Below are positions 1 through 35,738 of a stretch of 35,738 nt of DNA, piece by piece; within the stretch, counting starts at the first letter, position 1, and every line of letters starts with the position of its first letter. The DNA lies in IMG/VR virus record IMGVR_UViG_2778261460_000003; one strand, written 5' to 3'. Source of the stretch: a virus. Lineage: Duplodnaviria; Heunggongvirae; Uroviricota; Caudoviricetes. The notes under the pieces are model-generated. The model was not told the DNA's origin, made no database searches, and was given only the letters and a program-made list of their open reading frames with translations. The position numbers were made by a program, and so were the translations under genes.

Positions 1-141
1 TTACTGCTTACACTGTAAGAACGCCGCAAACTCCGCTCCCCAGAAGCTCATCCGTATTTCGCACAGTGAACCGTGCAGCATCCAGATGATGAGGATTGCC
101 GTCACGCAGAACGTGATGGCCGTAAGCGATTTTTGCGACAT
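1..141 (-). CDS. Hok/Gef-family type I toxin-like small membrane protein (46 aa)
   Basis: Reverse complement of 1-141 reads MSQKSLTAITFCVTAILIIWMLHGSLCEIRMSFWGAEFAAFLQCKQ: one hydrophobic helix then the SLCEIR...AAF motif typical of Hok/Gef. AAGGAG about 8 nt upstream of the ATG. Absent from the ORF track (under 60 aa). Confidence 0.55.
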   Translation of the reverse strand: MSQKSLTAITFCVTAILIIWMLHGSLCEIRMSFWGAEFAAFLQCKQ

Positions 142-331
142 AGCACTTGCTCCTTTTCTGGAGAGGCGCTAACCTTTCACTTGTCAAGGTAATGCGGTTA
201 GGGCCTCGGTTAAACAGGTATGTTTTCCGGGGCCTTTCCACATCTGGCCTTCGGGTATTCCCTCCGACCATCAGCCGAAAGGCACCCGCGCGTAATCTAT
301 CGCTTTTTTGTTACTCCGGCAATTCTGCCTG

Positions 332-592
332 TTAATTCTGAGGTAAAGGCAAGCTCATCTGATTGTTTCCCCTGTGTGAAGCTGGCAGCTCATGCCACGG
401 GATACCTTCTGAAGAGTGAACGCCGGAGGCGTGTTTCGATGTGAATTTATGGAAAGCTTCCAGTGTTGAGAAGCATACGCCGCATTCCAGGTTGTTACAC
501 TGGTAATACTTTTGCCGCACAGTGTTTGAATCATTTTCCGGACGACTGGTGCGGATGCGGGCAGATGCGCCACAAAGCGGACAACGGAACAT
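332..592 (-). CDS. ogr: Ogr/Delta-family zinc-finger late transcription activator
   Basis: N-terminus MFRCPLCG..ARIRTSR..YYQCNNLECG matches the P2 Ogr Cys4 zinc-finger pattern (MFHCPLC...ARTSR...YHQCQNVNCS). Expected position at the prophage end next to attR. Confidence 0.8.
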   Translation of the reverse strand: MFRCPLCGASARIRTSRPENDSNTVRQKYYQCNNLECGVCFSTLEAFHKFTSKHASGVHSSEGIPWHELPASHRGNNQMSLPLPQN

Positions 593-768: not shown

Positions 769-1593
769 ATGACTGACTTTAAATATCAATCTGATAGTTA
801 TGATAGACAATCACAAAAATTTGTTATTCCGCTCTACATACGAAATGAACTAGGCGATTATAATTATTCATCGACTGGAACGTTTATATATTACAAGCAA
901 TCACACTATGTGGTTTTTGCTGCTCATGCTCTGAGGGATAAAGATGACATCAGAAATATTTACATACTGGGTTCTGATGGTGAATTTTTTGCTTTGACTA
1001 GTATCTCTATAGGACATCGAATTTTTGAAGAAGATGATTTAGTCATTGTCGATTGCTTTAATATGATACTTGATGGGAAAAATTATTTCTCGCTTAAAGA
1101 TAATTTCAATTTTATTGGATTTGATAAGAAACATTTTGCATGGACAGGCTTCCCTAAAAACTGGTGCAAAACACAAACAATTCACAGAACAAAACGCCCT
1201 GGTTCAATAGTAAATCAAACGGTAGCTTCTAACGAAGATGGCCTGTTTTTTAAAAATGCCAAGTATTTCACTATAATATCCGAGGTTAAAACATTCAATA
1301 AAATTGAAATAACAGGAACATACAAGGTTAAGAATATAGATTTAAAATATAAAGGACAGGTAAGTAAAGGCCCTTCTCCAGAGGGAATGAGTGGTGGTGC
1401 AATGTATTTTTTCTCTAAGGGGCAAGAATTAAAAAAAGAACTGGAGTCAACATTTCTTTTGGCTGGAATTGGTTTGTCTTTTAAAAAAGATGGAACAATA
1501 GTGGGAATTAGCCGTTATCGTATGATTGAGCTATTTGAACAGTTTAATGAAGAATCACCTATAGAGTGTTCTCTTCATTTTCAACAAGAATAA
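769..1593 (+). CDS. Hypothetical cargo protein with chymotrypsin-fold serine-peptidase-like motifs (274 aa)
   Basis: Long ORF in a visibly AT-rich island. Motifs VVFAAHAL (His, about aa 53), DDLVIVD (Asp, about aa 95) and GMSGGAMY (Ser, about aa 208) resemble the TAAHC / DIAL / GDSGGP triad of S1 peptidases with similar spacing. No signal peptide evident. Followed by a hairpin terminator. Confidence 0.6.
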   Translation: MTDFKYQSDSYDRQSQKFVIPLYIRNELGDYNYSSTGTFIYYKQSHYVVFAAHALRDKDDIRNIYILGSDGEFFALTSISIGHRIFEEDDLVIVDCFNMILDGKNYFSLKDNFNFIGFDKKHFAWTGFPKNWCKTQTIHRTKRPGSIVNQTVASNEDGLFFKNAKYFTIISEVKTFNKIEITGTYKVKNIDLKYKGQVSKGPSPEGMSGGAMYFFSKGQELKKELESTFLLAGIGLSFKKDGTIVGISRYRMIELFEQFNEESPIECSLHFQQE

Positions 1594-33679: not shown

Positions 33680-34018
33680 TTATAAATCAGTCTGTTTAAT
33701 AAAACTTTGCCCGCGAAGCAGACGATCAACCGTGCGAAGTGCTTCGTACAATGTGAAATCCTGTCCAAACTGAGTGTCGCCGTTGCTCAGAGCAAAAATG
33801 CGGTTTCCGGTAAATGGGTTGCGTTGGCATCTGTGAACCACGATTCCAGCTTTTTCAATCAGCCAGGTGTGTTCGCCAATTTGTTTTACTGTATGGCCAT
33901 CTGGCGTTGCGTGCGTCTCGCTCAGGCTGTAGCGGATGTTGCTGCGTGATGCGCTGGTAGCGAAACGGTTAGCTTGGCGTTCCGTTTCGGTGCGAAAATT
34001 ACGGCGTTGCTTCAGCAT
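33680..34018 (-). CDS. Hypothetical early-region protein (occupies the position of P2 B)
   Basis: Second gene of the early operon; identity not confirmed. Confidence 0.45.
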   Translation of the reverse strand: MLKQRRNFRTETERQANRFATSASRSNIRYSLSETHATPDGHTVKQIGEHTWLIEKAGIVVHRCQRNPFTGNRIFALSNGDTQFGQDFTLYEALRTVDRLLRGQSFIKQTDL

Positions 34019-34032
34019 AAAATGACACCTCG

Positions 34033-34311
34033 TTATTTTGTCATCTGCACGTATTTCTCTGCGTTTCTGATGGTTTTCAGGAAAATTGCGAAGAGATTTA
34101 CTGTACGTTTTGAGTTTTTTTCTTCTTGGTTGATGGGAAGGGCTGCTCTGTCAGCCTGCCTTTTCACTGCATTAACAGTTTGATTGGTACGCTTCGCGTA
34201 ATCTTTCAGGCTTTCTTCGAGTACCGGTAATCCATGCTCATCGCGGTATGGGTAGAACGCCGCCAAACGCTCAAAATCCGCTTGCTCGTATGTGTTCAAG
34301 AGCTTTGTCAT
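34033..34311 (-). CDS. First early-operon gene at the Cox/Apl position (putative excisionase/regulator)
   Basis: 92 aa, divergent from C, same size as P2 Cox, but the sequence is not recognisably P2 Cox. Confidence 0.4.
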   Translation of the reverse strand: MTKLLNTYEQADFERLAAFYPYRDEHGLPVLEESLKDYAKRTNQTVNAVKRQADRAALPINQEEKNSKRTVNLFAIFLKTIRNAEKYVQMTK

Positions 34312-34402
34312 GATGTGATAACCTGTTCAGTCTGTGGTTATTTGTTGCTAAAAGTCGTCTCTAGGCGACTTTTAGGGTTAATTTAGTCGTCTGGAGACCA
34401 CC
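34312..34402. promoter_or_regulatory. Lysis-lysogeny switch region with divergent promoters and operator repeats
   Basis: Direct repeats AGTCGTCT at 34353-34360 and 34385-34392; palindrome AAAAGTCG-N8-CGACTTTT at 34350-34373. Confidence 0.4.
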
Positions 34403-34714
34403 ATGTCAAGTGGGTACGAAAAAAAACTGAAAGAGATACGGAAAAGTGAAGGGTTAACTCAAGCTGAGTTTGCAGATGTTACTGGGATAAATCTCGGAAC
34501 TATAAAGAATTATGAGAGCGGTAAAAGAGAGGTTGGTTTAAGCGTTGTTGATCGCGTAATTAATTCTAAGGATTTCGAAAAATACACTATATGGCTTATG
34601 ACGGGAAAAACAAATGAGGCTGCTGGGCAGATCAGTCCCTCTCTCTCCCCTGATGGGCCAGAAAACACATCGTCTTCTCAAAAATCCCGCAAGACTGGTA
34701 CACAGCCCGGCTAA
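34403..34714 (+). CDS. C: Immunity repressor C (XRE-type HTH)
   Basis: LTQAEFADVTGINLGTIKNYESGKR HTH; about 100 aa; upstream of int and divergent from the early operon, as P2 C. Confidence 0.8.
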   Translation: MSSGYEKKLKEIRKSEGLTQAEFADVTGINLGTIKNYESGKREVGLSVVDRVINSKDFEKYTIWLMTGKTNEAAGQISPSLSPDGPENTSSSQKSRKTGTQPG

Positions 34715-34763
34715 TCATGGAACGCTGGGGGCATGGTGGTCTTGTAACGCTGGGGTTTCACGA

Positions 34764-35738
34764 ATGAGCATAAAATCAATTCCGGGAGGGTATCTTCTTG
34801 ACATGCGCCCTGAGGGGCGTAAAGGCAAACGCATTCGCAAAAAATTTAAAACGAAATCGGATGCAGTTTTATATGAGCGGTGGGTGCTGGCGCAACAGCA
34901 TAACAATGAGTGGAAAGGAAACTCCATTGATCGCCGTCCGCTGTCGGTGCTTATTGACTTGTGGTGGAAATACCACGGCCAGCTAATGAAGTCAGGGCAT
35001 AACACGCGCCTTAAATTGCTGCGCTTGAGTGAGGCAATGGATGACCCGTGTGTGCATAAACTTAATACAACGATGCTCACCGAGCTACGTGTGTCCAGGA
35101 TAGAGCAGGGGATACAGCCCAGCACCATTAATCGAGAGATTGGGGCGTTAAGCGCGATGTTTACCGCACTCATCTCATCCGGCCATTTTCTTAACGATAA
35201 CCCCGTTCAAGGCCTTAAAGGAATGAAGGTTAACGAGCGCGAAATGGGATATCTGAGTAAGTCTGAATGTGTTCAGTTGCTGGATGCACTGGCTGAAAAT
35301 CCCGATGAACGGCTGGCTGTCGAAATCCTTCTGTCGACCGGGGCGCGATGGGGCGAGGTAGCGGCACTGGAGCAGCGCCGTGTTCTTCATTGTCGAATCA
35401 CTTTTTCAAAAACGAAGAACAGCAAAAACCGTACCGTTCCTATTTCTGAAAGCCTGTTTGAAAAGATCAAAAAACGGGGCGGGAAACTGGTGTTTCCGAC
35501 GCTGGATTATCCATTGGTTCGCGATGTCATCAAAACGGTCGCACCTGATGTTCCTGACGGCCAGGCTGTTCATGCGCTGCGCCACACCTTCGCCAGTCAT
35601 TTCATGATGAACGGCGGCAATATTCTGACGCTCCAGAAAATTCTGGGGCACGCAAAGATTCAGACAACGATGATTTATGCCCATCTTGCGCCGGATTACT
35701 TGCAGGATGCGGTGAGATTTAATCCTATTGCTGGGTAA
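34764..35738 (+). CDS. int: Tyrosine integrase
   Basis: C-terminal HALRHTFASHFMMNGGNILTLQKILGHAKIQTTMIYAHL (R..H..Y catalytic motifs); start chosen at MSIKSIPGG; stop at the window end. Confidence 0.85.
   Translation: MSIKSIPGGYLLDMRPEGRKGKRIRKKFKTKSDAVLYERWVLAQQHNNEWKGNSIDRRPLSVLIDLWWKYHGQLMKSGHNTRLKLLRLSEAMDDPCVHKLNTTMLTELRVSRIEQGIQPSTINREIGALSAMFTALISSGHFLNDNPVQGLKGMKVNEREMGYLSKSECVQLLDALAENPDERLAVEILLSTGARWGEVAALEQRRVLHCRITFSKTKNSKNRTVPISESLFEKIKKRGGKLVFPTLDYPLVRDVIKTVAPDVPDGQAVHALRHTFASHFMMNGGNILTLQKILGHAKIQTTMIYAHLAPDYLQDAVRFNPIAG

What the first reader, a model, noticed from the sequence alone, without database searches (positions are those of the whole stretch)
1..331. Unlisted Hok/Gef-like toxin ORF with an overlapping mok-like frame at the prophage left junction
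Seen in sequence: the reverse complement of 1-141 encodes a 46-aa peptide with one TM helix and the SLCEIR...AAF motif, preceded by AAGGAG. The out-of-frame ORF 8..271 (minus) overlaps it the way mok overlaps hok. It lies just outside ogr, so it is either the first host gene beyond attR or phage-borne addiction cargo. A hok-type mRNA leader would have to start in or near the 3' end of ogr.
Basis: partly seen in the sequence, partly recalled or inferred. Interest (0 to 1): 0.5.

Follow-up and report, generated by a model that had tools for sequence, protein, structure and literature searches.

The report
Phage-borne hok/Sok toxin-antitoxin cassette
The small gene at the left end of this E. coli P2-like prophage is a genuine Hok-type membrane toxin with its antisense-RNA control region, but it is already annotated in over a thousand genomes, and the overlapping "mok" frame is not conserved.

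Summary
The 46-aa ORF at 1..141 (-) is a real Hok/Gef toxin: Pfam HOK_GEF 29.9 bits (cut-off 22) and phrog_251 E 1e-22. RefSeq already annotates the identical protein (WP_000078916.1) beside ogr.

The hok mRNA leader starts near 287. That is 45 nt past the ogr stop, and it has its own promoter-like site.

The window ends at the hok stop codon, so the mRNA 3' end (fbi element and terminator) is missing. In a 99.9% identical genome the 408-nt mRNA folds with the classic 5'-3' tac/fbi helix (z -9.3). Removing fbi predicts the R1-type refolding.

A Sok-like antisense RNA is predicted on the + strand (-10 at 170-175, hairpin 200-236).

The cassette is phage cargo, not a host gene. In the two closest complete-genome relatives the 25-bp att core lies about 263 bp beyond the hok stop, in the ihfA terminator, and 5118 of 5426 E. 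coli genomes have the empty site.

The mok claim fails. The 87-aa frame is open in this window, but about half of the distinct relatives have no leader ORF reaching the hok ribosome-binding site. The supposed mok start region is the most variable, indel-rich part of the locus.

Verdict: ordinary and already known. One mildly interesting point is a possibly mok-independent subfamily.

The parts
1..141 (-). hok-family toxin CDS, 46 aa. It has one N-terminal hydrophobic helix, Cys27 in SLCEIR and Cys44 in LQCKQ. The stop codon is at 3-1, the very edge of the window.
   Evidence: ORF. Pfam PF01848 29.9 bits, above the cut-off of 22. phrog_251 E 1.3e-22. NCBIfam HokA 34 bits, below its cut-off. Annotated as WP_000078916.1 'Hok/Gef family protein'. 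Variable sites fall 11/5/26 by codon position.
150..157 (-). hok Shine-Dalgarno sequence, AAAAGGAG, 8 nt upstream of the ATG.
   Evidence: Read from the sequence. The GGAG core is kept across 56 distinct relatives (alignment A2).
128..287 (-). hok mRNA leader, with the predicted 5' end at 287. Its parts are:
- tac, 287-273
- ucb, 241-229
- the GAGG that corresponds to the mok SD of R1, 207-204
- the Sok-tail target, 201-176
- dcb (GCCUC), 167-163
   Evidence: Rfam RF01794 matches full length at 48.2 bits, E 2.4e-9 (gathering score 59). The pairings tac/fbi and ucb/GAGGCC in the full-length RNA, and tac/ucb and GAGGC/dcb in the truncated RNA, were predicted with ViennaRNA. They match the R1 scheme summarised in PMC9841398.
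294..322 (-). Promoter-like site for hok mRNA: TTGCCG (322-317), 17-nt spacer, TAGATT (299-294), then 6 nt to the G at 287. It lies entirely downstream of the ogr stop codon (334-332).
   Evidence: Read from the sequence. The Stx-phage copy has the same layout (TTGCCC, 17 nt, TAAATT) in an otherwise unrelated upstream context. The simple consensus scan did not list it, because it scores 8 of 12 and the scan needs 9.
147..240 (+). Predicted Sok-like antisense RNA gene:
- -35 TTGCTC at 147-152, overlapping the hok SD
- -10 TAACCT at 170-175
- start near 182
- single-stranded 5' tail of about 14-18 nt
- hairpin 200-209 with 227-236
- UUUCC 3' end
   Evidence: Sequence. Fold -24.1 kcal/mol, z -3.8; the P88 and Stx-phage versions fold alike although their inner stems differ. 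AGGTTAGCGCC, the complement of the -10, is invariant in 56 sequences. The same TAACC motif is what Takada et al. mutated to silence sokW, as deduced from primer YO-421 against probe YO-597.
8..271 (-). 87-aa out-of-frame ORF, the 'mok-like' frame. It is open in this allele but is judged not to be a conserved gene.
   Evidence: ORF. No Pfam, NCBIfam or PHROG hit. The frame lacks any canonical start upstream of hok in 39 of 67 distinct relatives. The segment that would hold a mok start has 25-28 nt length variants.
332..592 (-). ogr/delta-type late-gene activator, the neighbour upstream on the same strand. It is context, not part of the cassette.
   Evidence: PF04606 52.4 bits. Annotated as an Ogr/Delta-like zinc finger protein. 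No terminator-like site on the - strand between ogr and hok.

Best explanation
**What it is.** This is a self-contained hok/Sok-type type I toxin-antitoxin cassette of about 400 bp. It is carried as accessory cargo by a P88-like (Xuanwuvirus, P2-like) prophage of E. coli, between ogr and the phage attachment site.

**Proposed mechanism** (inferred by homology with plasmid R1 hok/sok and from predicted folds; nothing here is experimentally shown):
1. A constitutive promoter at 322-294 makes a roughly 408-nt mRNA starting at 287.
2. In the full-length RNA the 5' tac element (GGGUGCCUUUCGGCU) pairs with the 3' fbi element (..GGUCGAUAAGGCACCC). fbi lies 49-64 nt beyond the window edge.
3. In that state ucb pairs with the GAGG region, so the RNA is translationally silent and closed to the antisense RNA.
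4. Slow 3' trimming removes fbi. tac then pairs with ucb, and GAGGC pairs with dcb. This presents a target hairpin whose loop carries UUGA.
5. A short, unstable Sok-like RNA of about 55 nt is transcribed from the + strand (-10 at 170-175). It pairs through its 5' tail with 201-176 and blocks or destroys the activated mRNA.
6. If Sok synthesis stops, Hok is made and inserts into the inner membrane. Sok could stop because the prophage is lost, because host transcription is shut off by another phage, or because the prophage is induced.

**Where it differs from R1.** A mok leader ORF is not a conserved part of this subfamily, so coupling to hok translation probably does not depend on one.

**Biological role** (least certain): prophage stabilisation or exclusion of other phages, or help with lysis at induction as reported for hokW.
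For: **Toxin identity**
- Pfam HOK_GEF is above its gathering score.
- phrog_251 gives E 1e-22.
- RefSeq annotates the gene.
- Variable sites fall 11/5/26 by codon position, a purifying-selection pattern.

**Leader**
- Rfam RF01794 matches full length with E 2.4e-9. It also matches in P88 and VT2-Sakai.

**Fold-back**
- The 408-nt RNA has MFE -177.6 and z -9.3. A 15-bp 5'-3' helix closes it and a terminator follows.
- That helix is paired in 96.4% of cells across 56 distinct sequences, against 34-51% when the partners are slid.

**Refolding**
- tac/ucb and GAGGC/dcb pairings are predicted once fbi is removed. This matches the published R1 scheme.

**Sok**
- The -10 complement is invariant.
- The RNA has a stable hairpin with a free 5' tail.
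- The motif is the one shown experimentally to drive sokW.

**Phage-borne**
- A 25-bp direct repeat flanks the element in TUM1880, and O26:H11 11368 has the same ihfA/btuC site.
- The empty site is contiguous in 5118 of 5426 genomes.
- The cassette is present in P88, PhiR44_2, Chuche and 120 IMG/VR contigs.
- Homology with the Stx-phage copy spans about 2-308 of the window. In the three-way alignment it starts near the -35 and fades soon after fbi, so the cassette behaves as one module.

**Published context**
- hok is enriched in prophages (bioRxiv 10.1101/2025.08.07.668861).
Against: - No experiment bears on this particular allele.
- The Rfam hit is below the family's gathering score (48.2 against 59).
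- The tac/fbi helix shows no double-sided compensatory change, because its 5' side is invariant.
- Both promoters are weak consensus matches. The hok promoter was not picked up by the scan, and the Sok -10 matches only 3 of 6.
- The Sok terminator has only a UUU tract.
- The window itself lacks fbi and the terminator, so the complete structure is inferred from a 99.9% identical genome.
- The source genome of the window was not identified. The integration site is inferred from two close relatives.
- In R1, mok translation up to the hok SD is mandatory, and half of these loci have no such ORF. Either the mechanism differs here or some alleles are silent.
- Chromosomal hok loci of E. coli have been reported not to mediate post-segregational killing (cited).
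Confidence: 0.85

Rival explanations
1. This is a canonical mok-dependent locus. In this allele the overlapping frame is translated, either from the TTG at 187-185 in the target loop or from the ATG at 271. Hok synthesis would then be coupled to it exactly as in R1.
For: - The frame is open from 271 to 8 in the window and has in-frame ATG, GTG and TTG codons.
- The TTG lies in the predicted target-hairpin loop of the truncated RNA.
- 28 of 67 distinct relatives keep some canonical start in this frame.
- R1 requires mok translation up to the hok SD.
Against: - 39 of 67 distinct relatives encode the same or a nearly the same Hok but have no canonical start in that frame. Stops lie 13-55 nt upstream of the hok ATG in most of them.
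- 33 of 65 have no leader ORF in a non-hok frame reaching the hok SD.
- No start codon sits at the R1-equivalent distance after GAGG. The TTG is 15 nt from it, and the script's SD check found no SD-like motif before either the TTG or the ATG at 271.
- The segment has indels that are not multiples of three.
- Variation is concentrated at hok codon position 3, which is position 1 of the mok frame.
Confidence: 0.15
2. The cassette is an evolutionary relic. The toxin and the RNA elements look intact, but the locus is functionally silent, as has been suggested for chromosomal hok loci of E. coli.
For: - A mok ORF, which is essential in R1, is absent in about half of the alleles.
- Chromosomal hokA, hokB and hokC did not mediate post-segregational killing, according to work cited in the Hok survey.
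- Both promoter matches are weak.
Against: - All 119 full-length Hok peptides recovered are 46 aa. Only one of 128 hits was incomplete.
- Substitutions are dominated by third codon positions.
- tac, ucb, dcb, fbi and the Sok -10 are invariant or keep their pairing across 56 distinct sequences from two unrelated phage groups.
- 42 of 45 diverse Hok homologs tested in the survey were toxic.
Confidence: 0.1
3. Same cassette, different job. It is chiefly a lysis helper that fires at prophage induction, as reported for hokW-sokW of Stx phage Sp5, rather than an addiction or exclusion module.
For: - In Sp5, sokW RNA disappears and HokW appears after mitomycin C in a RecA-dependent way, and deleting the locus halves phage release.
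- hok lies directly downstream of ogr on the same strand with no terminator between them. ogr read-through could therefore feed 5'-extended hok transcripts. The timing of ogr expression is from general knowledge of P2.
Against: - The characterised hokW is a different, Gef-like 51-aa toxin at another locus. Its primers encode MKQQKAM...DYESEK, so the transfer is by analogy only.
- P2-like phages have their own holin and endolysin genes.
- A latent, stable mRNA with fold-back inhibition is the design of a delayed 'loss sensor'.
Confidence: 0.25
4. The ORF is the first host gene beyond attR, and the prophage merely abuts a resident chromosomal hok locus.
For: It is the last gene of the predicted prophage and the window stops at its stop codon.
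Against: - In the two closest complete-genome relatives the host flank is ihfA, and the 25-bp att core (GGCCGCTCTGCGGCCTTTTTTCTTT) lies about 263 bp further out. It is repeated next to btuC at the other end.
- The reconstituted ihfA|core|btuC junction, without hok, is contiguous at 100% identity in other genomes. 5118 of 5426 genomes cover at least 80% of it in one place.
- Phage genome records contain the cassette.
- 40 of 120 IMG/VR contigs end at the same stop codon. That fits a cut made at the last called gene.
Confidence: 0.01

Closest known systems
hok/sok (parB) of plasmid R1, the paradigm type I toxin-antitoxin system
   Same: - A small Hok/Gef membrane toxin.
- An mRNA of about 400 nt.
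- A 5' tac / 3' fbi fold-back.
- The ucb, SD-like GAGG and dcb alternative pairings.
- An antisense RNA gene whose -35 overlaps the hok SD.
- A target hairpin.

Sources; R1 scheme as described in PMC9841398.
   Different: - Hok is 46 aa rather than 52. Its C-terminal end is ..FLQCKQ.
- No conserved mok ORF.
- Carried by a phage, not a plasmid.
- The leader scores below Rfam's gathering threshold.
HokA of E. coli (NCBIfam NF007290)
   Same: It is the best-scoring named subfamily (34 bits, E 2e-8, residues 6-45). Like HokA, this peptide encodes both cysteines directly (C27 and C44, 17 residues apart). The Hok survey notes that HokA needs no RNA editing for that reason.
   Different: The score is far below the equivalog cut-off of 89 bits, so this is not a HokA orthologue. 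The genomic context is a prophage rather than the chromosomal hokA locus.
hokW-sokW of Stx2 phage Sp5 (Takada et al. 2021, PMC8621323)
   Same: - A phage-borne hok/Sok cassette in E. coli.
- The leader begins GGGUGC.
- The Sok -10 has the same TAACC motif.
- It is the only phage-borne Hok system with experimental data that I found.
   Different: It is a different locus and toxin: 51 aa, MKQQKAM...DYESEK, Gef/HokD-like. Stx phages also carry a second hok cassette next to lom that is 82% identical to this window's. That copy is unannotated in VT2-Sakai and is not the one studied.
phrog_251 'MokW-like host killing'; Hok/Gef gene of phage P88 (SF19_gp52) and other Xuanwuvirus genomes
   Same: It is the same gene in the same position beside ogr, with 94-98% DNA identity in the listed phage records that cover at least 90% of the query. 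It matches the PHROG over its full length.
   Different: Nothing substantive. The PHROG name says 'Mok', but the family it models is the Hok peptide.

Membership tests
Hok/Gef toxin family (Pfam PF01848) | Profile match above the curated gathering score | tested here: met
   29.9 bits against a cut-off of 22, E 4.1e-7, residues 7-44 on profile positions 5-42 of 42.
Hok/Gef toxin family (Pfam PF01848) | A peptide of about 50 aa with one N-terminal hydrophobic helix and the conserved cysteine in an (S/D)LCE motif, plus a C-terminal cysteine | tested here: met
   46 aa. The hydrophobic stretch is LTAITFCVTAILIIWML. It has SLCEIR (C27) and LQCKQ (C44). All full-length relatives are also 46 aa.
Hok/Gef toxin family (Pfam PF01848) | Membrane toxicity on expression | not testable with these tools
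   42 of 45 diverse homologs were toxic in the Hok survey. This allele was not shown to be among them.
hok/Sok type I TA locus (R1 type) | hok mRNA leader recognised by the Rfam RF01794 covariance model | tested here: inconclusive
   Full-length match to 287..128 (-), E 2.4e-9, but 48.2 bits is below the gathering score of 59. The whole-window gathering scan found nothing.
hok/Sok type I TA locus (R1 type) | Long-range tac (5') / fbi (3') fold-back helix closing the full-length mRNA | tested here: met
   A 15-bp helix appears in the MFE of the 408-nt RNA taken from the 99.9% identical genome. It is paired in 96.4% of cells across 56 distinct sequences, against 34-51% when slid. It shows one-sided changes only. 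fbi lies outside the window.
hok/Sok type I TA locus (R1 type) | Alternative pairings after 3' trimming: tac/ucb and SD-region/dcb | tested here: met
   Predicted by ViennaRNA for the RNA cut before fbi and for the nascent 70 nt, and by RNAalifold on 56 sequences. This is a computational prediction only.
hok/Sok type I TA locus (R1 type) | Antisense Sok RNA gene with its own promoter, a free 5' tail and a stem-loop | tested here: inconclusive
   - Sequence layout: TTGCTC, 17 nt, TAACCT, then a hairpin.
- The -10 complement is invariant.
- The motif is homologous to the sokW -10 that was mutated experimentally.
- No transcript data exist. The -10 matches 3 of 6 and the U-tract is short.
hok/Sok type I TA locus (R1 type) | mok leader ORF overlapping hok and translationally coupled to it | tested here: not met
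   The frame is open in the window, but 39 of 67 distinct relatives have no canonical start in it. 33 of 65 have no leader ORF in a non-hok frame reaching the hok SD. The region carries indels that are not multiples of three.
hok/Sok type I TA locus (R1 type) | Post-segregational killing or activation when transcription stops | not testable with these tools
   This needs rifampicin-chase or prophage-curing experiments.
HokA equivalog (NCBIfam NF007290) | Score at or above the equivalog cut-off | tested here: not met
   34 bits against a cut-off of 89.
hokW-sokW of Sp5 | Same toxin and locus as the characterised hokW | tested here: not met
   The published cloning primers encode MKQQKAM... and ...DYESEK. 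The Stx-phage sequence that matches this window encodes MSQKSLITVTICM...FLQCKQ next to lom.

The most novel reading that the evidence does not exclude
The 46-aa, HokA-like phage subfamily, found in P2-like and Stx phages, may work without any Mok leader peptide. On this reading Hok translation is gated only by the tac/fbi-ucb-dcb RNA switch and by Sok. The Sok 5'-tail/target segment would be under diversifying selection, so that cassettes on co-resident prophages do not cross-neutralise. That segment has 22 variants in 56 sequences, lengths of 25-28 nt, and 0.60 bits per column against 0.17 in the CDS.
Probability: 0.3. Interest if true: 0.35.

Novelty: already known. Interest (0 to 1): 0.15.

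Why it matters
It matters little as a discovery. [quoted passage not shown]

Three practical points are worth keeping:

1. **Boundary cutting.** The window ends exactly at the hok stop codon, as do 40 of 120 IMG/VR contigs. That pattern fits prophage boundaries cut at the last called gene. It removes the fbi element and terminator, so a complete cassette looks like a truncated one.
2. **Missed by standard Rfam annotation.** This subfamily's leader scores below Rfam's gathering threshold, so routine RNA annotation misses it.
3. **Mok.** The natural allele series argues that a Mok reading frame is dispensable here. That would be a modest refinement of the R1 paradigm, and it is easy to test.

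Tried and rejected
It was replaced by a degenerate DNA pattern scan of IMG/VR.
- **Equating the locus with published hokW** was rejected after reading the primers. PHROG-based records name the matching Stx-phage gene 'MokW-like', but it is a different hok.
- **Double-sided covariation in tac/fbi:** none, because the 5' side is invariant. Support is limited to conservation, one-sided GC/GU changes and the slide control.
- **The att core in the P88 record stretch fetched (L002)** was not found. P88's attP was not pursued.
- **Identifying the window's own genome** failed. The left end is 99.9% identical to TUM1880 and the integrase end 99.9% identical to O26:H11 strains, and no single record matched both. 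The integration site is therefore inferred from these two relatives, both at ihfA/btuC.
- **PADLOC on Hok and on the neighbouring 274-aa ORF:** no hits.
- **Literature searches for hok in P2-like phages** returned nothing specific.
- **RNAalifold on RNAs cut exactly at fbi** chose the local tac/ucb hairpin rather than tac/fbi. I read this as the known alternative state, not as evidence against fbi.

Full report

Yes.
- The reverse strand of 1-141 encodes MSQKSLTAITFCVTAILIIWMLHGSLCEIRMSFWGAEFAAFLQCKQ.
- AAAAGGAG lies at 157-150, 8 nt before the ATG.
- An 87-aa ORF at 8..271 (-) overlaps it out of frame.
- The next gene, 332..592 (-), is an Ogr/Delta zinc-finger protein (PF04606, 52.4 bits).
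- The window's first base is the last base of the hok stop codon.

**2. Is it a Hok toxin?**

Yes.
- Pfam HOK_GEF scores 29.9 bits, above the gathering score of 22, with E 4e-7.
- phrog_251 ('MokW-like host killing') matches the full length at E 1.3e-22.
- The nearest named subfamily is HokA, but at 34 bits against an equivalog cut-off of 89 it is not a HokA orthologue.
- A 700-nt query covering hok and ogr matches 1550 of 5426 complete E. coli genomes. In 1158 of them one place covers at least 80% of the query.
- In every listed row RefSeq annotates a 'Hok/Gef family protein' beside ogr. Both relatives inspected carry WP_000078916.1.
- P88-like phage records carry the gene too.

- All 119 full-length peptides among the 128 hits are 46 aa. 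They fall into two main types, a P2-like type and an Stx-phage type.
- Among 41 distinct CDS variants the variable sites fall 11/5/26 on codon positions 1/2/3. This is the signature of selection on the hok frame.

**3. Host gene or phage cargo?**

It is phage cargo.
- In E. coli TUM1880, which is 99.9% identical over the first 700 nt, the gene beyond hok is ihfA.
- A 25-bp direct repeat, GGCCGCTCTGCGGCCTTTTTTCTTT, overlaps the terminator-like hairpin just after the ihfA stop. It recurs just upstream of btuC on the far side of the integrase.
- The left copy lies about 263 bp beyond the hok stop.
- O26:H11 11368 has the same arrangement.
- The reconstituted junction ihfA|core|btuC is contiguous at 100% identity in other genomes. 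5118 of 5426 genomes cover at least 80% of it in one place.

attR is therefore not within 142-331, and hok is inside the element.

I could not identify the window's own genome. Its left end is closest to TUM1880 and its integrase end to O26:H11 strains. The integration site is inferred from these two relatives.

**4. The RNA machinery**

*Leader.* Rfam RF01794 is named 'sok', but its consensus runs from GGGUGCUUGAG to the hok AUG, so it models the sense-strand hok leader. Compare the hokW primers. It matches 287..128 (-) over its full length with E 2.4e-9 and 48.2 bits, below the gathering score of 59.

*Start and promoter.* The predicted 5' end at 287 lies 45 nt after the ogr stop (334-332). 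TTGCCG (322-317), a 17-nt spacer and TAGATT (299-294) precede it. The Stx-phage copy keeps this layout in an unrelated upstream context.

*Full-length fold.* The window lacks the 3' UTR, so I took it from TUM1880.
- The 408-nt RNA folds at -177.6 kcal/mol, z -9.3.
- Its 5' GGGUGCCUUUCGGCU pairs with ...GGUCGAUAAGGCACCC.
- A terminator-like hairpin follows.
- Across 56 distinct mRNAs this 15-bp helix is paired in 96.4% of cells, against 34-51% with slid partners.
- Its 5' side is invariant. Four pairs change on the 3' side only (GC/GU, UA/UG). There is therefore no double-sided covariation.

*Refolding.*
- With fbi present, GGCCCC (ucb) pairs with GAGGCC.
- With fbi removed, tac pairs with ucb, and GAGGC pairs with GCCUC (dcb).
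- The second state exposes a hairpin loop containing UUGA.
- RNAalifold on the 56 sequences finds the same tac/ucb hairpin.

This is the switch described for R1 (PMC9841398).

*Antisense RNA.*
- On the + strand, TTGCTC (147-152), 17 nt and TAACCT (170-175) are followed by an RNA with a free 5' tail and a stable hairpin (200-209 with 227-236). It folds at -24.1 kcal/mol, z -3.8.
- The complement of the -10 is invariant in all 56 sequences.
- The same TAACC motif is what Takada et al. changed to silence sokW, as deduced from primer YO-421 against probe YO-597.

All of this is prediction and homology. No transcript data were available.

**5. The mok claim**

In R1, mok starts 19 codons upstream of hok, and translation up to the hok SD is mandatory. 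Here the frame 8..271 is open, but three things count against it.
- No start codon sits at the R1-equivalent distance after GAGG. The in-frame TTG is 15 nt away. The script's SD check found no SD-like motif before either the TTG or the ATG at 271.
- Of 67 distinct relatives, 39 have no ATG/GTG/TTG in that frame upstream of hok. In most of them a stop lies 13-55 nt upstream. Of 65, 33 have no leader ORF in a non-hok frame reaching the hok SD.
- The segment that would hold the mok start is the most variable in the locus. It has 0.60 bits per column against 0.17 in the CDS, 22 variants among 56 sequences, and lengths of 25-28 nt.

That segment is the predicted Sok-tail target, so its variability fits an antisense specificity determinant better than a coding region. 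The 87-aa product has no Pfam, NCBIfam or PHROG hit.

I conclude that the overlapping ORF is not a conserved gene. Whether this particular allele uses its TTG is untested.

**6. Comparison with what is known**

The cassette works like R1 hok/sok and belongs to the Hok/Gef family.

It is not the hokW-sokW studied in Sp5. That toxin is a 51-aa Gef-like peptide, MKQQKAM...DYESEK. Stx phages hold a second cassette, 82% identical to this one, next to lom. It is unannotated in VT2-Sakai.

The similarity between the P2-like and Stx-phage copies starts near the -35 and fades soon after fbi. The cassette of about 400 bp therefore behaves as a mobile module.

A recent survey found 6290 Hok homologs in IMG/VR and a four-fold enrichment in prophages. 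It explicitly left Mok unanalysed.

**7. Function**

The mechanism I commit to is a latent, fold-back-inhibited toxin mRNA held in check by an unstable antisense RNA. The biological role is not settled. It could be prophage stabilisation or phage exclusion, or help with lysis at induction as for hokW.

hok follows ogr on the same strand with no predicted terminator between them. Read-through from ogr is therefore possible. This is inference.

**8. Verdict**

The ORF and its Hok identity are confirmed. The leader and promoter questions are answered and the junction is placed. The mok analogy is not supported. The locus is an ordinary, already annotated member of a well-known family, so interest is low. 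The only mildly new angle is a naturally mok-less subfamily with a hypervariable antisense target.

Noticed in passing
window 769-1593 (+): A 274-aa ORF lies between ogr and the tail gene D. It has no Pfam, NCBIfam or PADLOC hit and only a weak PHROG hit of unknown function. By eye it contains AAHAL and GMSGG, which recall the His and Ser motifs of trypsin-like serine proteases; this was not tested. In O26:H11 11368 the same slot holds HxsD/HxsB genes instead (L004 750-1022 and upstream), so the slot looks like a variable cargo site.
   Followed up: partly
L006 701-1009 (VT2-Sakai AP000363.1 44532-44840), next to lom: Stx phages (933W, VT2-Sakai and others) carry a second hok cassette. It encodes MSQKSLITVTICMTVIFTIWMLHGSLCEFRLNLWGAEFAAFLQCKQ and is 82% identical in DNA to the window's. 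It is distinct from the published hokW-sokW locus and is unannotated in several records.
   Followed up: partly
window 1; L007-L126: 40 of 120 IMG/VR contigs carrying this gene end within 3 nt of the hok stop codon, exactly like the window. This fits prophage boundaries cut at the last called gene, which removes the fbi element and terminator of the hok mRNA. L115 is identical to the window for its first 3969 bases.
   Followed up: yes
window 176-201 (-); alignment A2 columns 90-117: The predicted Sok-tail target is the most variable part of the cassette: 22 variants in 56 sequences, with lengths of 25-28 nt. Hok itself is nearly invariant. The variants I checked by eye keep a YUNR-type tetranucleotide (UUGA, UUAA, CUAG, CUCA, UUCG or UUCA) at the same place.
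   Followed up: partly
Rfam RF01794 match, window 128-287 (-): The Rfam family called 'sok antitoxin' aligns to the hok-sense strand, from the mRNA 5' end to the hok AUG. It therefore describes the hok leader rather than Sok itself. This phage subfamily scores 36-48 bits, below the gathering score of 59, so a gathering-threshold scan reports nothing.
   Followed up: yes
L001 3713-3737 and L003 3007-3031 (outside the window): The att core of this prophage group is a 25-bp sequence overlapping the terminator-like hairpin just after the ihfA stop (GGCCGCTCTGCGGCCTTTTTTCTTT). In TUM1880 a small gene, annotated as a CCDC90 family protein, lies between the integrase and the btuC-side core. In O26:H11 a hypothetical protein occupies that position.
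   Followed up: partly
window 33800-35738 compared with L003: The window is a mosaic relative to its closest matches. Its left end is 99.9% identical to TUM1880, but the integrase region is only 98.5% identical to TUM1880, with the aligned stretch ending 13 nt before the window end. That region is 99.9% identical to O26:H11 strains.
   Followed up: partly
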